Origin: Octopus vulgaris
Lineage: Eukaryota
Direction of reading: 5' to 3'
Length of the DNA stretch: 64,000 bases
Assembly (NCBI GenBank): GCA_951406725.2
Contig: OX597832.1
Coordinates: forward strand, 68,634,001 to 68,698,000
In this document: piece after piece, positions 1,387-52,474 of the stretch
How the letters are laid out: each line of letters opens with the position of its first letter
Position numbering within the stretch: the first letter of the stretch is position 1
Program-made: the position numbers and the translations under genes
The notes under the pieces: model-generated
What the model saw: only the letters and a program-made list of their open reading frames with translations
The model's database searches: none
Told to the model about the DNA's origin: nothing

Positions 1387-4254
1387 GCTTAGGTAGATTC
1401 AGACACAACGATATGCTGGTCACTATAGTATACAATCACAGGTGAATAACTTCTCTCTTTTATAGCAACAACATGTTCCACACACTCAGTTTATTGATGC
1501 ACAACATTCTGGAACACCTGTATTTTATCATGTTATCTCATCAGCCTGAAGAACCTGCACCTTTGGGCCTAAATCAAGCTGCTGGATTTGCTTATGCTCT
1601 CAAAAAGCAAACTGCCTGCTAATTAGTGCTTATACCTGCCAACTGATTAAAAAAAAAACAGTCTAGCTCATTATTTGTAGAGCAAGATCTGTAATGATTC
1701 TTTGAGGTCCTGTGTGCCAATGAGCCATATTATGAATAAATATGCTTCTGGCTGTTGAGACATGCTGGAACACTAATGTCCCAGAATCGTGTGTGCCAAG
1801 GAACTGGGTTGAGCACAATATTGTAAAAAAGAGAGATTATTGTACTATGAGAACATTCACAACTATGTCCAGCATATCTTGTGTTCGAACCTGTCCAGAT
1901 GTATTAAAAATAAAAGCAGGAATAATCATTTTACACACAGAAACAACACACACAGAGTATATATATGAAGACCCCCCCACACACACACATATATATTATG
2001 TATATTTATGAATAAATGTATGTGTATGCACACATATACATTGTATATCCAAAGTAATATGTGACTGTATCCATACATATAGTCACACTGTATGTGTATG
2101 TATACACACACACACACACATACACGCAAAGTAATTCATTCCCCATTGTTTCATGATAACATTTTTCTCACCATCACTCATTTCTATGTTCCCATTTAGC
2201 ACTTGGTTACAGTTCACAAAGACAGCAAAGTGTTAGAATACAAAGCACTGATATCCCAACTTATATCCTATCACTCTTATTACTATTTGTAAGATAATTA
2301 TATTAATTATATCAAATATATATGGACAAAACGATATCTATTTTGTTTTGCTCTGCCATCAAACGAGTATGATACTGATTATATCTGAACAAGAAAAATA
2401 TTTGTAGGAAAGTAAAGCTATTGAGATATCCTTCTAAATTATATATCTGTGTGTGTGTGTCTGTGTGTGTGTGTGTGCTTATATGTATATGAACACACAC
2501 ACGGATATTAAATGTAATACCAGCAATTCAGTTCTTCGTTTATTATATTTGTATATATATAAATGTTTGTGTATATATCTATGTATGTATCTAAACAAAA
2601 ATCTCTTGACAACTATGATCTTAATCAGAAATCTCCAGCTGCTTACAATACCTAAACATTAAACATGACTAATCCCATTCCCCACCAAAAAAGGGCAACT
2701 TATAAGGTTTCTACCACAAACCACAAATCCCTACACATATGAAACAAAATCCTCCAATGTAGACAATTTTTTATACTCTAAGTTTATCTGAATCAAAATA
2801 GATCAAAATTGTTTTTAGAAACCTTTATAAAATGCTTTTCACTGATGTCTTTTGTGGAGAAAAATCTTTTATGGGTCCAAATATTTTCCAAACATATTTC
2901 AACTGGCATCAAATTTGTTTTTTTTGTTCCTTCTTTCAGTCACTACTTTACACATCAACTCATGACAGGTGAGATGCTTCATCAGTTAATAGTTTAATCG
3001 CTTTCTAAGAAGAGAAGTTAAGCTTCTTAGTTCAAGGTTGTCAAACATAGGTACCTAGTGCTGATGAGAACAAATTTAATTTGAAATACATATCCATCAG
3101 TCCATAAGAGGCTACTTTAAGCTGACTATGGAGTTTTGACATAATTTGGTCTCCAGCAAGAATTTGTTCTCCATGACAAACTACAGTGAAAATCATTTTC
3201 ACAAATTCAAGTATGTTTCAAATATATTTGAATTGGTATCAAATGTTTTTGCTTTCAACTGTTGCTTTGCACATCAACTCACAAATAAATATATATCATG
3301 TATTCATTAGTTGAAGGGACAGTCACTTAAAACAAACTTGATATCTTTATATTTCTCTTGTTCCTATTCGCTCAACTTCACAAAAGCAATCTGCAAAGAT
3401 GACTGTCATTATTACAGATTATTATCATAAATGTTAATTTGAGTTCTTTCAAAAGTTCATAATCCATCGTTGGCTTATAGTTTTGTTGTCCTTCTCTTTC
3501 CAAAGACAAGACCTGATTGGGCAGAACTCTAATCAATAGTTGTTCCTTTGGTGACCACATCATTTGTTATCAAATGCAGGACTTCATTATCTACTCTGTT
3601 CTTCATGGCAAAATGCATGAAAGGAAACTTCACTGCTGTTTCTAGCAGACTGAGGGATGATACAGTGTTTTCTTGCTTGGATGGTCATATACACAACAAT
3701 ATCTGACATCTGATATAACGAACACTGAACATCATAAATGGAGGCTTTGACATCCTGGCTATCATTGCTGGGAATCTGTTTCAATAACTTCCTTATAAGA
3801 TATGACTGTGTCATTAAGAAGTGGACTTCTTAATGCAGTGATTTCAAGTTCAATCCCACAGCATGGCACCTTTGGCGATTGTTTCTTACTTATAGAGTAA
3901 CTGACGCCTTGTAAATGGATTAAGAAGGCAGTGGCTTAAAAACGGTTACATGTGAATGCTTGCACATGTGCGTGCATGTGTGCCTCTGTGTGTGTGTGTG
4001 TGTGTGTGACGTTGTCTTGATATTAGGCAACAGATTTAAATGAGCGCCCCCTGTCTTACAAATTGTGTCCTTTTCCAGTTTCCATGGAGACACTTCTGGC
4101 CATGGGGAACTAATATCTTTCTTGGAAAATGGGTTTTTGTTGATGACAGGGAGAGCATCAAGCTGTAAAACATTTGCCCCATTGAAATTATGTCTGATCT
4201 ACAAAAGCATGGGAAAGTAGATGTTAGAACAATGATTACAAGGACAGCTGATGG

Positions 4255-9340: not shown

Positions 9341-11524
9341 CATCATCATCATAAGAATTTAACGTCCGTTTTCCATGCTAGCATGGGTTGGACGGTTTTG
9401 ACTGAGGGTCGGCAACCAGATGGCTGCACCAGGCTCCAATTTTGATCTGGCAGAGTTTCTACAGCTGGATGCCCTTCCTAACGCCAACCACTCTGAGAGT
9501 GTAGTGGGTGCTTTTTACATGCCACCTGCATGGGGGCCTGTCAGGCGGTACTGGTAATGACCTTGCTCGAATCTTTTTACACGTACCCACCGGCACAAGT
9601 GCCAGTGAAGCGACGTTTGTAACAATCACGCTTGAATGGTGTCCTTTTATGTGCCACGGGTATGGAAGCCAGTTATCTGCTGTGGCAACGATCACGTTCG
9701 GATGGTGTTCTTGGCCCCCTACTAGCACAGGCATAAGTGCCAGTAAGGTGACACTGGTAATGATCACACTCGAAAAGCTGCTCTGTCAATGATCACACTC
9801 GTATGATGCTCTTTGCACCACGCTAGCACGGATGCCAATCAACGAAGTGATTTTGATTTTGATTTGATTTCACTTGCCTCAAAAGGTCTTCGCAAGCAAA
9901 GTTTAGTGACAAAAGAAGGAAAAGCCACGCATAAGTTGGCTGGTTATGCTCCTGGCATAGGCCACGGGTTAAGGTTTCATCTGGCTTGCCAGGTCTTCTC
10001 GAGCACAGCATATTTCCAAAAGTCTCGGTTGTTAGTCATTTCATTGGTGAGGGCCTAATGTTCGAAGGTCGTGCTTCACCACCTCATCCCAGGTCTTTCT
10101 GGGTCTACCTCTTCCACAGGTTCCCTCAATGTGACACGTTTTCACACAGCTATCCTCATCCATTCTCACCACATGACCATACCAGCACAGTCGTCTTTCT
10201 TGCACACCACATCTAATGCTTCTTAGGTCCAACTTTTCTCTCACGGTACTTACACTCTGTTGAGTATGCACACTGACATTACACATCCATCGGATCATAC
10301 TGGCTTCATTCCTTGCAAGCTTACGCATATCCTCAGCAGTCACAGCCCATGTTTCACTGCCATGTAGCATGGCTATTCATACATATGCATCATACAGTCT
10401 GCCTTTTACTCTGAGCAAGAGGCCCTTTGTCACAAGCAGAGGTAAGAGCTCTCTGAACTTTGCCCAAGCTATTCTTATTCTAGCAGCTACACTTTCAGTG
10501 CACCCTCTTCCACTACTGATTTGGTCACCTAGATAATGGAAGCTATCAACTACTTCTAGTTTTTCTCCCTGGAATGTGGCAGAAGTTGGTCTCTGTGCAT
10601 TTTCAGTGTTTATTGCTCCTGAGCATCTGCCACATACAAAAACTATCTTCCCCGTTAGCATTCTTTTGATATTACTGCACCTCTTATGTGTCCATAGCTT
10701 ACACTGGGTACATCTTATTGAGTTTCTACACCTCTACTACAAATCGAGCAGGGCCATCTACCTGAAGGGCTTTGTGGTTTGCCTGCCTTCCTACTTATTA
10801 GGACTTTGGTTTTAGCTAGGTTGATTCTAAGGCCCTTCGATTCTAATCCTTGTTTCCACACTTGAAACTTCTCTAGTTCTGATAGCAACTCAGCGATTAG
10901 TGCAAGGTCATCAGCATAGAGGAGTTCCTAGGGGAATCCTGTCTTGAATTCCTCCGTTATTGCCTGGAGGACTATGATAAATAGGAGGGGACTGAGGACT
11001 GAACCTTGGTGGACCCCAACCTCTACCTTGAATTCTTCAGTGTACTCGTTGCAAACCCTCACCTTCCTTACAGCATCCCTGTACATGGCTTGCACAGCTC
11101 TCACTAACCATTCATCTGTCCCTAGTTTCCTCATTGACCACCAGATAAAGGATCAGGAGACCCTGTCAAAGGCTTTCTCCATGTCAACAAAAGCCAGGTA
11201 CAGAGGTTTATCTTTGGCCAGATATTTCTCCTGCAGATGTCTTACCAGAAATATGGCATCAGTGGTGCTTTTCCCTGGCACGAAACCAAACTGCATCTCA
11301 TCCAAGCTGACTCTCTCCCTAATCAATGGGCTATGACCCTCTCCGTAGCCATCATTACCTGATCCAACAGCTCGATACCTCTGTAATTATTTGTATCTAG
11401 GGCGTCACCTTTACCTTTGTAGCAGTTAACTATTATGCTGCTACACCAGTCATTGGGTATGACTCCTTCGTGTATCACCTGGTTAACTATACGGGTGACT
11501 AGGCTATAGCCGACACTGCCAGAT
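9341..11524 (-). mobile_element. 5'-truncated RTE-clade LINE (RT with YADD, PHD finger, 3' UTR repeats, GAT tail)
   Basis: ORF pieces GVHQGSVLSPLLF and MLHGSETWA; YADD codons near 10907-10918; GRGRPRKTW; (CAT)n at 9341; collinear with 32900-35200. Confidence 0.95.
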
Positions 11525-16635: not shown

Positions 16636-18490
16636 GGTTATGGCCTAATCACCTGTATTGTAAATCAGGTAATTCACAAAGGAGTCATACCCAGTGATTG
16701 GTGTAGCAGAAACATAGTCAACTGTTACAAAGGTAAAGGTGATGCTTTAGATAGAAATAAATACAGGGTATCAAATTGCTGGATCAGATGATGACAGTCA
16801 CGTAGACAGTCATAACCCAACTTATTAGGGAGTGAGTTAGCCTAGATGAGATGCAGTTTTGTTAGGTGCCAGGTAGAAGAACCACAGATGCTATATTTCT
16901 GGTAAGGAAACTGCAGGAGAAATACCTAGCCAAAGATAAACCTCTGTACTTGGCCTTTGTTGACTTGGAGAAAGCCTTTGACAGAGTCCTCCGATCCCTT
17001 ATCTGGTGGTTAATGTGGAAACTGGGGATAGACAAGTGGCTGGTAAGATTTGTACAAGCCCTGAACAGGGATGCTGTCAGTAAAGTGAGGGTTAGCAATG
17101 AGTATAGTGAGGAATTTCGGGTAGAAGTAGGGGTTCGCCAAGGATCAGTCCTCAGTCCCCTCTTATTCATCATAGTACTCAAGGTAATAACAGAAGAATT
17201 CAAGACAGCTTGCCCTTGGCAGCTCTACTATGCTGATTACCTTGCTCTAATAGCTGAATCACTACAAGAACTAGACACAAAGTTTTAGGTGTGGAAACAA
17301 AGTCTAGAATCAAGGGCCTTAGAGTCAATCTAGCAAAAACCTAGTAAGTAGGAAGGCAGACAAATCATAAACCCTTCAGGTAGATGGCCCTACTCGATCT
17401 GTAGAAAAGGCATAGGTAGAAACTCCATAATATGTAACTGGTGTAAGCTTTGGACACATAAGAGGTGCAGCAATATCAAAGGAAGGTTAATTGGAAAGAT
17501 AGTTTTTGTGTATGGCAGATACACAGGATGCAATAAGCACCGAAAATGTACAGAAAACAGATTCCATCATATGCCAGTGAAAAACTACAAGTAGTCTTTA
17601 GCTCCTGCTACTTAGGTGACCAAGTATGTAGTGGGGGTGGATGCTCTGAGAGCATTGCCACTAGAATAAGAATAACCTGGGCAAAGTTTAGAATGTTCCT
17701 ACCTCTGCTGGCAACAAAGGGCCTCTTGCTGAGAATGAAAGGTAGACTATATGATGCATGTGCGCAAACAGCGATGCTACACAGCAGTGAAACATGGGCC
17801 ATGACTGCTGAGGATATGTGTAAGCTTGAAAGAAATGAAGCTGGTATGATCCACAGGATGTGTAATGTCAGCGTGCATACATGACAGAGTGTAAGCACCC
17901 TGAGAGAAAAGATCGACATAAGAAGCATCAGATGTGGTGTGCAAGAGAGACAACTGCACTGGTATGAACAAGTGATATGTATAGATGAGGACAGCTGTAT
18001 GAAGTGTCACACCCTAACAGTAGAAGGAACCTGTGGCAGAGGTAAAACTAGGAAGACATGGGATGAGGTAGTGAAGTGCGACCTTCAAAGGTTGGGCCTT
18101 ACAGAGGTAATGACAAGAGACCAAGACCTTTGGAGATATGCTGTGATTGAGAAGACTCAGCAAGTAAAGTGAGATTGCAGTTGTGACTAATACCTGTGTT
18201 GCAAAACCAGCCTATTTAAAAGTACCCTGAAATCACCGAGCAACACGCTGTGCTTCAGAACATCTGTTGAGTAGAGGGAAATCAGAACTGAAATCGTAGT
18301 CGTGGCCAATGCCAGTGCCACCTGACTGGCAACCATACTGGTGACACGTAATAAGCACCATTCAAGCATGGGTCGATGTCAGTGCCATGTGACTGGCTCC
18401 CTGTGCCAGTGACATGTAAAAAGTACCTTCTGAACATGGTCGAAGCCAGTGCCACCTGACTGGGTCCTGTGCCACTGGCATGTAAAAATC
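16636..18490 (+). mobile_element. Degenerate 5'-truncated RTE LINE
   Basis: TTDAIFLVR, FVDLEKAFDRV, QGSVLSPLLF, YADY (mutated YADD), HSSETWA; 3' UTR repeats; no GAT tail. Confidence 0.95.
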
Positions 18491-26774: not shown

Positions 26775-26951
26775 TCATTAGCACACTGGACGAAATGATT
26801 AGCAGTATTTCGCCCATCGCTATGTTCTGAGTTCAAATACTGCTGAGGTTGACTCTGCCTTTCATCCTTTCAGGGTCGATAAATTAAATACCAGTTATGC
26901 ACTGGGGTCAATGTAATTGCCTAGTCCCCTACTCCCAAATTTCAGGCCTTG
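26775..26951 (+). mobile_element. Meta-like SINE, 3' end replaced by an RTE fragment
   Basis: GCCTTTCATCCTTTCAGGGTCGATAAATTAA core; joins RTE sequence after CAGGCCTTG. Confidence 0.8.
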
Positions 26952-28176
26952 CAGAAACTCCATAAGACGTACCCAGTGTAAGCTATGGACACATAAGAGG
27001 TGCAGCAATATCAAAGGTAGGCTAACTGGGAAGATATCTTTTGTATGTGGCAGATACTCAGGAGCAATAAACACTGAAAATGTGCAGAGAACAACTTTCG
27101 CCACATTCCAGGGAGAAAAACTAGAAATAGTTGATAGCTTCTGTTACCTAGGTGAACAAGTCAGTAGCGGGAGAGGGTGTGCTGAAAGTGTAGTTGCTAG
27201 AATAAGAATAGCCTGGGCAAAGTTCAGAGAGCTCTTACCTCTGCTGGTGACAAAAGGCCTCTTGCTCAGAGTAAAAGGCAGACTGTATGATGCATGTGTA
27301 TGAACACCCATGCTACACGGCAGTGAAACATGGGCTGTGACTGCTGAGGACATGCGTAAGCTTGCAAGGAATGAAGCCAGTATGCTCCACTGGATGTATG
27401 ATGTCAGTGTGCATACACAACAGAGTGTAAATGCCCTGAGAGAAAAGTTGGATTTAAGAAGCATCAGGTGTGGTGTGCAAGAGAGATGACTGCACTGGTA
27501 TGGTCCTGTGTTGTGAATGGAGGAGAACAGCAGTGCGAAAAAGTGTCACACCCTGGCAGTGTGGGAACCTGTGTAAGAGGTAGACCTAGGAAGATTGGGA
27601 TGAGGTGCTGAAGCACAACCTTCAAACATTGGGCTTCACTGAGACAATGACTAGTGACTGAGACCTTTGGAGATATGCTGTGCTTGAGAAGACCCAACAA
27701 GCCAAGTGAGACCATAACCCATAGCCTATGCCAGTGAGATATAATCAACCCACTTATAAGTACCCCTCATTCATTTGACAATAAACTTTGCTTGTGAAGA
27801 CCTGTTGGGGCAAGTGAAATCGAAATCACTGACAGTACCGCCTGATTGGCATTCATGCTAGTGGAACATTAAAAGCACCACCTGAGTGTGATTGTTACCA
27901 GGGCCGCAGGGTGGCTCCCATGCAGGTGGCATGTAAAAAACACCTTTTGAGTATGGTCATTGCTAGTACCACCAGACTGGCCCTCGTGCTGGTGGCATGT
28001 AAAAGCACCCACTACACTCTCGGATTGGATGTCGTTGGGAAGGGCATCCAGCTGTAGAAACTTTGCCAGATTTGATTGGAGACTGGTGCAACCTTTTGGC
28101 TCGCCAGCCCAGTCAAACCGTCCAACCCATGCCAGCATGTAAAGTAGACATTAAACAACAACGATGATGATGATCA
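26952..28176 (+). mobile_element. 5'-truncated RTE LINE starting inside the PHD finger
   Basis: RNSIRRTQCKLWTHKRC...AWAKFRELLPLL...HGSETWA; 3' UTR; GAT tail at 28163. Confidence 0.93.
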
Positions 28177-32899: not shown

Positions 32900-35800
32900 T
32901 CATCTTCATCATCATCATCGTTTAACATGCATTCTCCATGCTAGCATGGGTTGGACGGTTCAACCGGGGATCTGGGAAGCCAGAAGGCTGCACCAGGCTC
33001 CAGTCTGATTTGGCAGTGTTTCTACAGTTGGATGCCCTTCTTAATGCCAACCACTCTGTGAGTGTAGTGGGTGCTTTTTATGTACCACTGGCACAGGTAC
33101 CAGGCGAGGCTGGCAACGGCCACAATCGGATTGGTACTTTTTACGTGCCACTGGCACAGGTGTCAGGCGAGGCTGGCAATGGCCATGATCGGATTGGTGC
33201 TTTTTACGTGCCACTGGCATGGAAACCAGTCAAGGCGGTGCTGGCATCAGCCACATTCGGATGGTGCTTTTTACGTGCCACCAGCACAGGGATCACAACT
33301 GCAGTTTCCATTGATTTTTGATGTTGGTGTACTTGACTCATTGGATCTCCTCAAGCACAGGGTCGAAATGGTGTTTCTTTACTTGCCACCTGCACACGAG
33401 TCAGTCCAGTGGCCCTGGTAACTGCTGGGTGCCAGTCATAGGATTGGTTCCATTTCGATTCCGATTTCACTTGCCCCAACAGGTCTTCGCAAGCAGAGTT
33501 TAGTGTCCAATGAAGGGAGGTTGGCATGGTTACCTGTCGTCGGATGAGGTTCGATTTCGACTTCACTTGCCTCAACAGGTCTTTGTGTGTCCAAGGGAGG
33601 AAAGGCATGCATAAGTTGGCTGGCTGGGATGGACTCACTTGTCCTGCTGGGTCTTCTCACGGACAGCATATTTCCAAAGGTCTCGGTCGCTAGTCATTGC
33701 CTCAGTGAGGCCTAATGTTCGAAGGTCATACTTCACCACCTCGTCCCAGGTTTTCCTGGGTTTACCTCTTCCATGGGTTCCCTCAACTGCTAGGGATTGG
33801 CACTTTTTCACACACCTATCTTCATCCATTCTCACCACATGACCATACCAGTGCACTCGTCTCTCTTGCACACCACACCTGATGCTTCTTAGGTCCAACT
33901 TTTCTCTCAAGATACTTACACTCTGTCGAGTATGTACACTGACATTACACATCCATTCGAGCATACTGGCTTCATTCCTTGCAAGCTTACGCATGTCCTC
34001 AGCAGTCACGGCCCAAGTTTCACTGCCATGTAGCATGGCTGTTCGTACACATGCATCATACAGTCTGCCTTTTACTCTGAGCAAGAGGCCTTTTGTCACC
34101 AGCAGAGGTAAGAGCTCCCTGAACTTTGCCCAAGCTATTCTTACTCTAGCAGTTACACTTTCAGCACACCCACCCCCACTACTGACTTGGTCACCTAGGT
34201 AACGGAAGCTATCAACTACTTCTAGTTTTTCTCCCTGGAAAGTAACAGAAGTTGGTCTCTGCACATTTTCAGTGTTTATTGCTCCCGAGCATCTGCCACA
34301 TACAAAAACTATCTTCCCAGTTAGCCTTCCTTTGACATTGCTACACCTCTTATGTGTCCATAACTTACACTGGGTACATCTTATAGAGTTTCTACCTACG
34401 CCTTTTCTACAGATCGAGCAGGGCCATCTACCTGAAGGCGTTTGTGGTTTGTCTGCCTTCCTACTTAGTAGGACTTTGGTTTTAGCTAGGTTGACTCTAA
34501 GGCCCTTCGATTCTAATCCTTCCTTCCACACCTGAAACTTCTCCTCCAGTTCTGGTAGTGACTCAGCAATTAGAGCAAGGTCGTTAGCATATAGGAGCTC
34601 CCAGGGGCATCCTGTCTTGAATTCCTCCGTTATTGCCTGCAGGACTATGATAAATAGGAAGGGGCTGAGGACTGAACCCCGGTAGACCCCAAACTCTACC
34701 TTGAATTTTTCAGTGTACACATTGCCAACCCTTACCTTACTTACAGCGTCCCTGTACATGGCTTGCACAGCTCTCACCAGCCATTCATCTATCCCTAGTT
34801 TCCTCATTGACCACCAGATAGGGGATCGGGAGACCCTGTCAAAGGCTTTCTCCATGTCAATGAAAGCCACGTATAGGGGCTTATCTTTGGCCAGGTATTT
34901 CTCCTGCAGCTGTCTCACCAGAAATATGGCATCAGTGGTGCTTTTCATTGGCATGAAACCAAACTGCATCTCATCCAAATTGACTGTCTCCCTAATCAGT
35001 TGGGCTATGACCCTCTCCGTAGCCTTCATTACCTGATCCAACAGCTTGATACCTCTGTAATTATTTGTGTCTAGGGTGTCACCTTTAACTTTGTAGCAGT
35101 TGACTATTATGCTGCTACACCAGTCATTGGGTATGATTCCTTCATGTATCACCTGGTTAACTATACGGGTGACTAGGCTATAGCCAACACTGCCAGATAT
35201 TTTGAGCATTTCTGCAGTAATTCCTGATGGGCCTGGGGCTTTCCCTGAATTCATGCTTCTAATTGCCTTAACTACCATAGAACTGTCAACTCGGATAGCT
35301 GGTCCCTCTGTTGGGTTGACATTAGGCAGACTCTCTTTATCGCATTTATTTTCTTTATTCAGCAACCTTTCATAGTGGTGTCTCCAAAACTCTCTCTTTG
35401 CATCCTCATTTAGCGCAAGCGAACCATCATCCATGCGAACACATTTCTCTCCTACCACATCACGATTCTCTCTCACACACTGTCTTGCAACACAAAATAC
35501 CTCAAGTCTTTGGTCCTCATGGTGCAGAACATTGGCAAATTTTTTCTTATCTGCTTCCCCTCTGGCTAAATAAACCTGTCTCCTAGCTTCCCTTCTGGCA
35601 GTCTGATACAGTTCCCTGCTACCTCCGTTCTTCCAGTCCTTCTAAGCCTGTTTCTTTTGTCTAATAGCCTTGTCAACCACATTGTTCCACCACCACGTTA
35701 CCTTGGGTCGAGTGGGGACTTTGCACCAGCCTGAGATCTGGTCAGTGGCTCTCAGCAGGTTGTCCCGTAGAAACCTCCAGTTGTCTTCCACATTATGTGA

Positions 35801-36272
35801 TGCTATACACCCTTCTATTTCATCAAAGGCTTCGAGTAATACGTTTCTAAATCTCTGCCCATTTGCAGGATCTTTAAGTTTCCAGACCCTTCTCCTCCAG
35901 GCTGGACTTCTTCTGGGCATCCATTCAGCCCTTATCCTGAAGTCGCTAACTACTAATCTATGTTGAGGGTTACATTCTTCACCTGGGAAGGTTTTGGCAT
36001 TTATAAGCAGCCCTCTTTCCCTTTTTCTGGTGAGGATATAGTCAATTTGGCTAGTGTGTCTGCCAGAATGATAGGTGACTAGGTGACGGGTGGGTTTCCT
36101 GAAGTTGGTATTGCAAACCATAAGATCATTTGCATCGCAGAACTCCAGCAGTCTGGTTCCCTCCTCATTGCGGGAACCAAAACCATAGCCTCCATGTATG
36201 CCATGGAAGCGCCCTGCACATTGTCCAACATGTCCATTGAATTCACCAACCACAAAAAGAAGGTCTCTGTCA
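32900..36272 (-). mobile_element. Nearly intact 5'-truncated RTE LINE (partial APE, RT, PHD finger, 3' UTR, GAT tail)
   Basis: GEFNGHVG, SQIDYIL, PQHRLVV, then the RT motifs; (CAT)n tail near 32900. Confidence 0.97.
33635..36272 (-). pseudogene. RTE ORF (APE-RT-PHD), one in-frame TAG at 35642-35644 and YADD changed to YAND
   Basis: ORFs 35642-36328 and 33635-35476 share a frame (165-nt gap without stop); YAND at 34580-34591. Confidence 0.9.
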
Positions 36273-36810
36273 GATAATTCTCTCCTTAGAATGTGAGCTG
36301 TACCCAATAATGCTGTCTTCTGTACCACCTCGAGCCTGACAGCAGCTCCAATATTCTTAATGTTTTTTAAAGCCCTTGGAAACTGCTCCTAATGCTCCAA
36401 TTACCACCGGTATCACTATTACTTTCTTCATGTCCCATAACTTTCCCATCTTGTCCTGCAGTGGCTGGTATTTCTCATCCTTTTCTGTTTCCTCACATTT
36501 CACCCATCAAGTGTCTGGTATTGCAAAATCTATTATCTTTACTTCTTTTTCATCTTTATGGTTGAGCACGATATCTGGTCGTCTCACCTCTATGACTTTG
36601 TGGCACTGCATGTTAAAATCCCAGAGTATATTGTAATGTTTGTTTTCCATTACTCCCTCTGACTTCTGTTCATACCATTGTTCGGCTCCCTCTTGAGGTT
36701 TGCTTTACTGCACAACAGCCAGTGGACATATCTGGCTACATTGTCGTGTCTCCTTTAATATTTGCATTGTGCAAGCTTACAGCACTCACTAACAATATGA
36801 CATATTAGTA
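36273..36810 (-). mobile_element. R4/Dong-type LINE fragment (CCHC region plus RLE)
   Basis: HIVSEC..LAQ...RRHDNVARYVHW, ILWDF, RRPDIV, IIDFAIP, VQKTALLGTAHILRREL. Confidence 0.88.
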
Positions 36811-36834
36811 TTATCGATATTATTATTACTGTGC

Positions 36835-37400
36835 AGTACCAGGCAGTGGCTCTCATGGCTTCTGATCTTAACTGATTAGAAGTGTTATCATGTACATTGT
36901 TTTGTCTTGGTATAAAAGATGGGCTACAGCAAATATTCTGCTCAATACCACAGATTTGCTTGTCAGTTGTTTCACCTTAACCAGTTGAGCATGTCCCTTA
37001 GTGGCTGACGATATGTGCATCTCTGATCACGAGCAGAAGTAGTAGGGGAGCATCATAGCCATGTGTTGAGAGGGATTCTTTGGGGTTTGAATAATTCACC
37101 TCTGGAAACATGGGTGGTTCTTTCAACATCCTTAAACAACCCTTATTCAGGGACCTTTTGAGTGGGATGGGCTACTCAACCTGAAGAAAATTCTAACTGG
37201 GCCCCACCTGCAAGGTCTTGTGCTGTTTATCTTGATATGAGATCACCATGTCGCGCACATATGGTTGTGATGCATGTGCCTGGTGTACCTTTATCAGACG
37301 GGTAGTCATAATGGGTATATTGGGCTTCGTATATTTTACCCCAGTGTCACTTTGATGGCATGCACTGCTCTCTCACTCAATAATAATAATAATAATAATA
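36835..37400 (+). mobile_element. ~545-bp (AAT)n-tailed non-coding retroposon, copy 1
   Basis: Ends CTCTCTCACTCAATAATAAT; near-identical to the reverse complement of 37588-38132. Confidence 0.8.
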
Positions 37401-37403
37401 ATA

Positions 37404-37448
<45 letters not shown>

Positions 37449-37456
37449 GTTATTGC

Positions 37457-37495
<39 letters not shown>

Positions 37496-37512
37496 CATCA
37501 TTATTATTATTA

Positions 37513-37550
<38 letters not shown>

Positions 37551-37587
37551 GTTATTATTATTATTATTATTGTTATTATTATTATCA
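37381..37587. repeat. (AAT)n switching to (ATT)n spacer
   Basis: Polarity switches at about 37403. Confidence 0.95.
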
Positions 37588-38174
37588 TTGAGTGAGAGAG
37601 CAGTTCATGCCATCAAAGTGACACTGGGGTAAAATATACGAAGCCCAATATACCCATCATGACTACCCGTCTGATAAAGGTACACCAGGCACATGCATCA
37701 CAACCATATGTGCGCGACATGGTGATCTCATATCAAGATAAACAGCACATGACCTTGCAGGTGGGGCCCAGTTAGAATTTTCTTCAGGTTGAGTAGCCCA
37801 TCCCGCTCAAACGGTCCCTGAATAAGGGTTGTTTAAGGATGTTGAAAGAACCACCCATGTTTCCAGAGGTGAATTATTCAAACCCCAAAGAATCCTCTCA
37901 ACACATGGCTATGATGCTCCCCCACTACTTCTGCTCGTGATCAGAGATGCACATAACGTCAGCCACTAAGGGACATGCTCAACTGGTTAAGGTCAAACAA
38001 CTGACAAGCAAATCTGTGGTATTGAGCAGAATATTTGCTGTAGCCCATCTTTTATACCAAGACAAAACAATGTACATGATAACACTTCCAATCAGTTAAG
38101 ATCAGAAGCCATGAGAGCCACTGCCTGGTACTCCATGAGAGCCACTGCCTGGTACTTTATGAGAGCCACTGCCT
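37588..38174 (-). mobile_element. Same retroposon, copy 2, with triplicated 24-bp 5' end
   Basis: Reverse complement of copy 1; ATGAGAGCCACTGCCT at 38111, 38135 and 38159. Confidence 0.8.
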
Positions 38175-51597: not shown

Positions 51598-51604
<7 letters not shown>

Positions 51605-52432
51605 TACACACATGTGAGTGAGAACACTTTGAGATATTTTTGGTATCTAACATATGTCAGATACTGCGAGCGCTGCTTCTGATTGGTCAATCCACGGTGA
51701 TGACCCGAGGTCACGGTGACGGCACTACTTTTGTCATTCATAAGTTCCAACTAAACTTCATTCATTACTTTCACGAGCAGGTAGAATGTAGCCATGTAAT
51801 TAAACAAACATACTATCTTTTTTATACCAGATATCACTTAAAGTCATATACACATAAAATATAAACATTTCTGGTGTAATTCAATTTTTTGTTGCCAAAA
51901 AAAATCACAATATATTTCGTGTGCTTGTCGATACTCTTGCAGTGCAGGTAGATCTATCAACAAGATGGCTACTGTTGTGGATATCAAGGTGAATGATTTT
52001 GTTAAGATTGATGGTAAAGATGGGGGAAGAGTGTTATCCGTTGTTCAACCTCTTGGAACATACAGAATGTTCAAAGTGAAGATCAATACTGGCCAAGTTC
52101 GACTGAAAACTTAGCGCTATAAAGTTGGACTATCTTCCTGTGGCATGACATCTTTTACAGTTACACATTGTGACGTCACTGATGTGAAATCAAGCTGTAT
52201 TCATGCGCGCTTCAACACGATGTGAAGAATTTAGTTATTGGGTTAATAAAATATGGTCGTTTATTCGTGTGTAATAAATAAAATACCAAACTCATTCCCT
52301 ATGGATACCGTATTTATTACAACTCATGGCTTGTAAATGTATCTAACTCACTTTCACTCGTTAGATACGTTTACAAGCCACTCGTTGTAATAAATACGGT
52401 ATCCATAGGGAACTCATTTGGTATTCTCTCTA
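51598..52432 (+). mobile_element. Crypton-like non-autonomous element with terminal long hairpin
   Basis: 14-bp IR (51598-51611, 52267-52280); CTGATTGG near the 5' end; 144-bp hairpin 52282-52425; (TA)n on both flanks. The family call is from recalled architecture only. Confidence 0.6.
51965..52114 (+). CDS. 49-aa beta-barrel-like (SH3/KOW/Tudor pattern) ORF inside the element, possibly a truncated N-terminus
   Basis: AAGATGG start context; MATVVDIKVNDFVKIDGKDGGRVLSVVQPLGTYRMFKVKINTGQVRLKT*; reading continues RYKV after the TAG. Confidence 0.4.
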   Translation: MATVVDIKVNDFVKIDGKDGGRVLSVVQPLGTYRMFKVKINTGQVRLKT

Positions 52433-52474
52433 TATATATAAATGTATTGATACATTCATCGCCATACCTATTCT

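What the first reader, a model, noticed from the sequence alone, without database searches (positions are those of the whole stretch)
52282..52425. 144-bp terminal hairpin with six co-oriented unpaired CTCR motifs
Seen: three paired blocks (9, 28 and 21 bp, one mismatch) are separated by symmetric 4x4 internal loops. The loops read CTCA/CTCA and CTCA/CTCG, and the apex is C-TCACTTTCACTC-G. The tetramers are therefore direct repeats while everything around them is inverted. Random decay would not produce this pattern. Inference: a designed ssDNA or cruciform recognition structure, comparable in logic to integron attC sites or rolling-circle origins, possibly for a tyrosine recombinase.
Basis: partly seen in the sequence, partly recalled or inferred. 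Interest (0 to 1): 0.75.

Follow-up and report, generated by a model that had tools for sequence, protein, structure and literature searches.

The report
Folded end of octopus Crypton transposon
The hairpin is the right-hand end of a broken copy of a Crypton jumping gene found hundreds of times in this genome; its one-strand-only mismatch pattern recurs in unrelated animal Cryptons, which suggests that their recombinase likely works on a folded single DNA strand, as bacterial integrons do.

Summary
The hairpin is real (z -18.6). It ends 8 bp from the right end of an 833-bp internally deleted CryptonA DNA transposon (51601-52433). The family has at least 293 copies; full-length 2.4-kb copies encode a DUF3504 tyrosine recombinase with all catalytic residues. 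The window copy is CpG-decayed: the family reads CTCG at most loops, so the core is a TC/TC mismatch. On the opposite strand this is CGAG/CGAG, the context of tandem sheared G.A pairs, capped by the mini-hairpin GCGAAAGC. CryptonA loci from other animals (recombinases 43-54% identical to this one) carry hairpins with unrelated stems and the same polarity: 38 TC/TC, 0 GA/GA among 51 two-base loops. Yet 42 of 90 copies here have lost a mismatch by palindrome perfection at about 1% divergence, so long-term retention implies selection. The left end complements the segment just before the hairpin, so joining the ends would complete the stem base, as in integron cassettes. There is no target duplication. 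Best reading (0.55): the folded non-coding strand is the recombination substrate. No biochemistry or circle was shown. Earlier scan notes proposed the same for other genomes; I did not find it in print.

The parts
51601..52433 (+). Internally deleted (non-autonomous) CryptonA DNA transposon, 833 bp, inserted in a TA run
   Evidence: 95% identical to both ends of the full-length copy L034, with about 1.6 kb missing; same two ends in 88 of 90 sampled copies (left end) and 73 of 90 (right end scored)
51601..51611 (+). Left end (TTATTACACAC), reverse complement of the sub-terminal segment at 52267-52277
   Evidence: first eight positions 87-88 of 88 identical across copies
51965..52103 (+). First 46 codons of the recombinase ORF, cut by the internal deletion
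   Evidence: no Pfam hit on its own; predicted five-strand N-terminal domain in the full protein
52267..52280 (+). Sub-terminal arm that would pair with the joined right end plus left end (14 bp) and form the base of the folded site
   Evidence: sequence; the joined form exists naturally in the head-to-tail pair L207/L206; pairing itself is inferred
52282..52425 (.). 144-nt imperfect hairpin, stems of 9, 28 and 21 bp
52291..52294 (+). Outer mismatch, 5' side (CTCA; partner 52413-52416)
   Evidence: TC form in 84 of 89 scorable copies; partner TC form in 59 of 78, GA form in 17
52323..52326 (+). Inner mismatch, 5' side (family CTCG, here CTCA; partner 52381-52384)
   Evidence: TC form 44, GA form 20 of 66 scorable; partner TC 54, GA 14 of 71
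52347..52360 (-). Apex: in the family majority the - strand carries a tandem G.A site capped by GCGAAAGC; decayed at two CpGs in this copy
   Evidence: inverted in 17 of 58 scorable copies
52426..52433 (+). Right terminus (CT)nAT; followed by target-derived DTAY
   Evidence: terminal CTAT also in 11 of 16 hairpin-bearing loci from other animals (two further CTAT hits were internal)

Best explanation
The hairpin is the right end of a CryptonA transposon, and it likely acts as a folded single-strand recombination site for the element's own tyrosine recombinase. Shown: family membership, both ends, the recombinase ORF, the mismatch pattern and its strand polarity, the end-to-subterminal complementarity, the target preference and the lack of a target duplication. 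Inferred steps: (1) the non-coding strand folds (as ssDNA during replication or as one arm of a cruciform), with tandem sheared G.A pairs and a GNA/GNNA mini-hairpin cap that favour it over the coding strand, which has only pyrimidine mismatches; (2) the recombinase cuts at the base of the fold, next to the terminal CTAT, and joins the right end to the left end; (3) in the resulting circle the left end completes a further 14-bp stem with the sub-terminal arm, giving an attC-like site; (4) one strand exchange with a minimal dsDNA target (t^DTAY), resolved by replication, inserts the element without duplication.
For: Recombinase: DUF3504 E 1e-26, Phage_integrase E 6e-9; R, K, H, R, H, Y present and kept in 47-50 of 50 homologues; Cre-like fold. 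Polarity: 15 hairpins 280-610 bp downstream of other animals' CryptonA ORFs have 38 TC/TC, 6 TC/TT and 0 GA/GA among 51 two-base loops, all 38 in YTCR/YTCR context, while their arms share no similarity with this one (local scores 5-10 against 65). The opposite-strand YGAR/YGAR context forms tandem sheared G.A pairs in DNA hairpins (PMC10085684, passages). GCGNAGC caps the non-coding strand in 9 of 15, the coding strand in 0 of 15, and GCGAAAGC in this family; these are ultra-stable in DNA (Tm 76.5 C, against 39 C for r(GCGAAAGC); PMC13037366, passages). Erosion: 42 of 90 copies have at least one conversion while paired non-CpG positions differ by 1.15%; converted and unconverted copies are mixed within each marker-defined subfamily. 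End layout: the left end matches the mirrored pre-hairpin segment at 15-16 of 16 in 4 of 9 testable foreign loci and 14 of 16 in one more; cross-lineage controls reach 10-14. Target: T at +2 in 99 of 100, A at +3 in 80, T at -1 in 72; duplication lengths are close to shuffled; three insertions in other repeats show net 0, +1 and -1 base. attC works this way (PMC2727003, part 1 of 8).
Against: No binding, cleavage or circle was observed; no end-to-end joint was listed in four contig sets. Nearest-neighbour DNA energies barely separate the two strands. Single-mismatch direction is uninformative (11 against 15). The protein model is closer to Cre (rank 2) than to integron integrase 2A3V (rank 29). 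Only 13 of 32 foreign loci with 900 bp or more downstream show a hairpin; 2 more show the apex motif only. L149 has a perfected inner site and a GA-form apex; it fell outside the 250-700 bp window that I chose. L194 and L198 lack the apex. The left-end test failed in 4 of 9. Stem covariation alone is weak because template switching makes compensatory changes without selection (PMC8794818, abstract). The clustering test has low power, and one site came close to significance (P 0.07). The mismatches lie 15 to more than 60 bp from the inferred cut site, further than attC's extrahelical bases, and their distance from it is not fixed between families.
Confidence: 0.55

Rival explanations
1. Recombination is conventional (double-stranded circle, as assumed for Cryptons), or at least happens at an unfolded site, and the hairpin has an accessory DNA role: a priming or protection signal on a single-stranded intermediate, or a cruciform nucleator.
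For: GCGAAAGC sits at the phage G4 primase site and resists nucleases (PMC13037366, passages). The conserved features cluster at the apex, far from the ends. The fold is Cre-like. The published model assumes a dsDNA circle (PMC13565253, passage).
Against: It does not explain why each family's left end complements the segment before its own hairpin, nor a target requirement on one side of the cut only.
Confidence: 0.22
2. The YTCR tetramers are co-oriented protein-binding sites in ordinary duplex DNA, and the palindrome is incidental.
For: Six direct copies at near-helical spacing (24 and 32 bp here, about 22 bp elsewhere).
Against: The tetramers always face each other across the fold, with closing pairs that covary (CTCG/CTCG 18, CTCA/TTCG 20). 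The long palindrome is costly: the apex is unscorable in 32 of 90 copies, many through deletion.
Confidence: 0.09
3. The hairpin works as RNA (transcript end, antisense RNA or small-RNA precursor).
For: It lies downstream of the ORF; RNA energies favour the antisense strand by several kcal/mol in 15 of 17 hairpins; GAAA is also a GNRA loop.
Against: Most families have a three-base GNA loop, a DNA mini-hairpin motif. No Rfam family reaches its threshold. The element has no reverse transcriptase. An RNA role does not explain the end complementarity.
Confidence: 0.08
4. The mismatches are kept only to make a necessary long palindrome less unstable or less visible to host repair, and their sequence does not matter.
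For: The hairpin is clearly unstable in the genome.
Against: Any mismatch would serve, but 44 of 51 two-base loops are TC/TC or TC/TT with one polarity.
Confidence: 0.06

Closest known systems
CryptonA DNA transposons and their non-autonomous derivatives (Kojima and Jurka 2011, PMC3212892; passages and a supplement search read)
   Same: Single DUF3504 tyrosine recombinase ORF, about 2-2.4 kb, no reverse transcriptase, no terminal inverted repeats or target duplication, many short deletion derivatives.
   Different: That paper found no terminal repeats in animal Cryptons (termini 'n.d.' in the three supplement rows seen) and does not use the words hairpin or palindrome. Here there is a split 11-14 bp inverted repeat and a 144-nt mismatched hairpin.
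Integron gene cassette attC site (PMC2727003, part 1 of 8 read)
   Same: Imperfect palindrome of similar length at the 3' end of an ORF; poorly conserved sequence with conserved structure; strand asymmetry; tyrosine recombinase. From my own knowledge: the cassette's 5' end completes the outer box on circularisation, and secondary sites need only a few bases.
   Different: Eukaryotic, encodes its own enzyme, no attI or Pc platform; asymmetry comes from tandem G.A and a GNA cap, not extrahelical bases; the enzyme is not especially IntI-like; nothing is shown biochemically.
CTX phage folded ssDNA integration by XerC/D, and strand-biased circularising elements (SE) of Vibrio (PMC9345347, passages read)
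   Same: Tyrosine recombinases acting on one strand, with replication completing the reaction.
   Different: Bacterial; CTX uses host enzymes at dif; SEs have four genes and are target-specific.
Helitron/Helentron and IS200/IS605 ends (features recalled; review passages in PMC13565253)
   Same: Sub-terminal hairpin, asymmetric inverted repeats, no target duplication, single-strand chemistry.
   Different: These use HUH nucleases; this element encodes a tyrosine recombinase, ends in CTAT and has a far longer hairpin.

Membership tests
CryptonA | DUF3504-type tyrosine recombinase as the only ORF | tested here: met
CryptonA | Catalytic R-K-H-R-H-Y residues intact | tested here: met
   R266, K299, H394, R397, H420, Y429 of P0001; kept in 47-50 of 50 aligned proteins
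CryptonA | No reverse transcriptase and no C-terminal GCR1 domain | tested here: met
   Pfam gives only DUF3504, Phage_integrase and QRICH1
CryptonA | No terminal inverted repeats of the DDE type and no target duplication | tested here: met
   ends differ; duplication lengths near shuffled in 100 copies; three empty-site comparisons
CryptonA | Placement in the CryptonA clade on a tree with Repbase references | not tested
   no reference sequences on hand; assignment rests on Pfam, homologue names and structure
Integron attC | Imperfect palindrome whose outer arm is completed by the element's own 5' end | tested here: met
   this family; 4-5 of 9 foreign loci
Integron attC | IntI integrase, attI site and cassette promoter | tested here: not met
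   the enzyme is DUF3504, Cre-like, IntI at rank 29; copies are dispersed singly
Integron attC | Recombinase binds and recombines only the folded bottom strand | not testable with these tools
   needs biochemistry or a strand-delivery assay
Helitron/Helentron, IS200/IS605 | HUH nuclease | tested here: not met
Known structured RNA or microRNA | Match at an Rfam gathering score | tested here: not met
   best match over the hairpin 39 bits against a threshold of 130

The most novel reading that the evidence does not exclude
Animal CryptonA transposons are self-mobilising, integron-cassette-like elements: a eukaryotic tyrosine recombinase recognises one folded DNA strand by tandem sheared G.A pairs and a GNA mini-hairpin rather than by sequence, and pastes it into almost any TA-containing site by a single strand exchange.
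Probability: 0.45. Interest if true: 0.85.

Novelty: new variant of a known kind. Interest (0 to 1): 0.65.

Why it matters
Crypton transposition has not been shown experimentally and is assumed to run through a double-stranded circle (PMC13565253, passage). The end anatomy gives a specific, cheap-to-test alternative: which strand, which fold, where the cut falls. This genome also holds young copies with uninterrupted ORFs. If true, folded-ssDNA recombination, known from integrons and CTX phage, would also operate in animals. It would explain why no terminal repeats were found, suggest a structure-binding ancestry for the domesticated DUF3504 proteins (ZMYM, QRICH1, KCTD1), and offer a one-protein integrase with a minimal target requirement.

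Tried and rejected
Other DUF3504 loci of this genome (7 single-exon loci) have no comparable hairpin within about 1.5 kb and gave no second family. Two apex-pattern searches in the genome were uninformative: one had a miscounted length, the other was swamped by an unrelated repeat. Viral contigs hold no relative. Strand choice by folding energy or by wobble direction: no signal. The excess of outer 3' over outer 5' conversions (17 against 3) is not used, because my anchor pattern would miss long 5'-side conversions. Conversion does not track divergence (P 0.34), so it cannot be dated to after or during insertion. Sequencing runs: no RNA holder listed; contigs showed no end-to-end joint among the ten listed, which is no evidence of absence. 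The wide structural search (VIA) did not run, so IntI-likeness rests on Foldseek ranks only. Helitron, microRNA and MITE readings were rejected on the enzyme, Rfam and end structure.

Full report
Observation. The hairpin is as described: 52282-52425, stems of 9, 28 and 21 bp, six CTCR tetramers on the + strand only, z -18.6 against 200 shuffles. The window is from a 2.8-Gb animal genome; the closest named homologue of the element's protein is an Octopus sinensis gene at 95%, so I call it an octopus (inference).

What it belongs to. The hairpin has at least 40 copies at 95-100% identity (40 of 358 candidates scored). A 23-nt pattern just before it has 293 exact matches against 0 for the control. 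Copies share a left end (TTATTACAC) and a right end ((CT)nAT) and range from 360 bp to about 2.4 kb. Full-length copies carry one ORF; L035 and L038 have it uninterrupted (518 and 522 aa), though both have lost the hairpin apex. Pfam gives DUF3504, Phage_integrase and QRICH1. The six catalytic residues are present and conserved, and the model (pLDDT 80.6) matches QRICH1, then Cre, with integron integrase at rank 29. The window copy (51601-52433) keeps 46 codons and lacks about 1.6 kb. It is a non-autonomous CryptonA derivative.

The real mismatch motif. The window copy differs from the family majority at five CpG positions. In the majority the loops are CTCA/CTCG, CTCG/CTCG and an apex CTCG-C-TTTC-G-CTCG. 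CTCG facing CTCG pairs at its first and last base and leaves TC opposite TC. On the other strand this is CGAG facing CGAG, which forms two sheared G.A pairs between G:C pairs in DNA hairpins (PMC10085684, passages). The apex on that strand is GCGAAAGC, an ultra-stable DNA mini-hairpin also found at the phage G4 priming site (PMC13037366, passages). So the two strands are predicted to fold differently, although nearest-neighbour energies hardly show it.

Conservation elsewhere. A profile of 50 proteins gave 333 related stretches in metagenome contigs, of which the best 80 were kept. A blind hairpin scan found 46 hairpins. Fifteen lie 280-610 bp downstream of the recombinase match (distance window chosen after seeing the scan). 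They fall into five or six lineages at 44-60% protein identity to each other and 43-54% to this one, and their arms are unrelated to this family's. Of their 51 two-base loops 38 are TC/TC, 6 TC/TT and none GA/GA on the coding strand; the other 31 hairpins have 6 TC/TC and 6 GA/GA of 34, and some of those look like ends of further Cryptons, so they are an imperfect control. GCGNAGC caps the non-coding strand in 9 of 15, a G-GTA-C loop in 3 more, and the coding strand in none. Misses: 19 of 32 loci with 900 bp or more downstream show no hairpin (2 of them show the apex motif); L149 at +929 has a perfected inner site and GA-form apex; L121 lacks the GNA cap; L194 and L198 lack the apex.

Erosion. 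I took 90 of the 293 anchor matches (the first 30 loci plus 60 more from the 100 listed), a choice blind to the inner and apical loops. Paired non-CpG positions differ from the majority by 1.15% (42 ungapped copies). Yet 42 of 90 copies have at least one site changed to the exact reverse complement of its partner, and the apex is inverted in 17 of 58 scorable copies. Arm homogenisation with spacer inversion is what template switching produces (PMC8604942, search listing; PMC8794818, abstract). Among 49 copies of the 412-bp type, converted and unconverted forms are mixed within each marker-defined group, and no site clusters significantly (P 0.07-0.59; low power). Mismatches that vanish this fast, yet persist across families whose enzymes are half diverged, are most simply kept by selection on transposing copies (inference). 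The same process means that stem covariation alone proves little.

Ends and target. The left end is the reverse complement of the 11 nt ending just before the hairpin. Joining the right end to the left end extends this to 14 bp and closes the base of the hairpin; that junction occurs naturally in the head-to-tail pair L207/L206. In foreign loci the predicted left end is found at 15-16 of 16 in L127, L132, L140 and L190, at 14 in L121, and not in L126, L128, L135 or L194; controls reach 10-14. Over 100 copies the flank after the right end is D, T (99), A (80), Y (91), and the base before the left end is T in 72. The target thus mimics the element's own left end, on one side of the cut. Duplication lengths are near shuffled; three insertions into other repeats show 0, +1 and -1 base against empty paralogues that are only 66-82% identical.

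Mechanism. This is the layout of an integron cassette: ORF, then an imperfect palindrome whose outermost arm is completed by the element's own start (the last point is from my own knowledge), with one strand marked out. attC recombines as a folded bottom strand, and replication resolves the single exchange (PMC2727003, part 1 of 8). I put 0.55 on the folded non-coding strand being the substrate, 0.22 on an accessory DNA role beside conventional recombination, and less on duplex binding sites, RNA or mere stabilisation. No step of the chemistry is shown here, no circle was seen, and the enzyme shows no special likeness to IntI.

Known and new. Membership of CryptonA is met on every feature tested; membership of integrons and HUH elements is not. 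Kojima and Jurka found no terminal repeats in animal Cryptons (passages; supplement rows). A 2026 CryptonA paper does not contain 'hairpin' or 'single-strand' (abstract and passages), and a 2026 review says the mechanism is not demonstrated (passage). Searches returned no description of this end structure; I read passages of PMC5753468, PMC9345347, PMC4455052 and PMC9004415 and only listings of the rest. Repbase and Dfam entry notes and subscription journals were out of reach and may mention the palindrome. Earlier AI notes of this scan reach the same reading in other genomes (55 findings in at least 16 genomes match 'crypton hairpin', 8 shown). I saw them after forming my reading and do not count them as support. 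What this locus adds is a cephalopod family with uninterrupted ORFs and a measured erosion rate of the mismatches.

Verdict. Real feature, known superfamily, end architecture apparently undescribed in print, with a testable mechanism. Interest 0.65.

Noticed in passing
window 33635-36328 (-), with fragments near 10130-11330, 16767-18003, 26950-27560: LINE with endonuclease remnant and a 613-aa reverse transcriptase ORF that holds a PHD-like zinc finger.
   Followed up: partly
window 36832-38135: Large inverted duplication (arms of 256 nt at 96% and 411 nt at 91%) centred on an ATT microsatellite.
   Followed up: no
window from about 52915: tRNA-like head with A- and B-box-like motifs (recalled), probably a SINE.
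   Followed up: no
L073, L075, L077, L079-L082: Seven other single-exon DUF3504 ORFs in this genome without a terminal hairpin; by eye most lack the C-terminal catalytic motif, so probably domesticated Cryptons.
   Followed up: partly
L021, L227, L238, L239, L241, L242, L270: Copies of different lengths sit at the same TA-rich position of another repeat: an insertion hotspot or co-amplification.
   Followed up: partly
L206/L207 (G000:C1 about 103,191,400-103,192,400): Two copies of different length head to tail with an exact end-to-end junction, like a two-cassette array.
   Followed up: partly
P0001 residues 10-55; window 51992-52103: Confidently modelled five-strand N-terminal domain without a Pfam match; several deletion copies keep it.
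   Followed up: no
L124, L130, L143, L159, L172, L187, L188, L190, L195, 136-302 bp upstream of the match: A second, shorter shared hairpin with a GA/CA loop beside a CCAAT-like motif in foreign CryptonA loci.
   Followed up: no
L034:984-1151 and 3168-3410: Contig depth at the two ends is hundreds of times that over the ORF, so short copies probably far outnumber the 293 exact matches (depth is not a copy number).
   Followed up: no
P0064: A predicted octopus protein with 86% identity over 19% of the recombinase, joined to unrelated domains.
   Followed up: no
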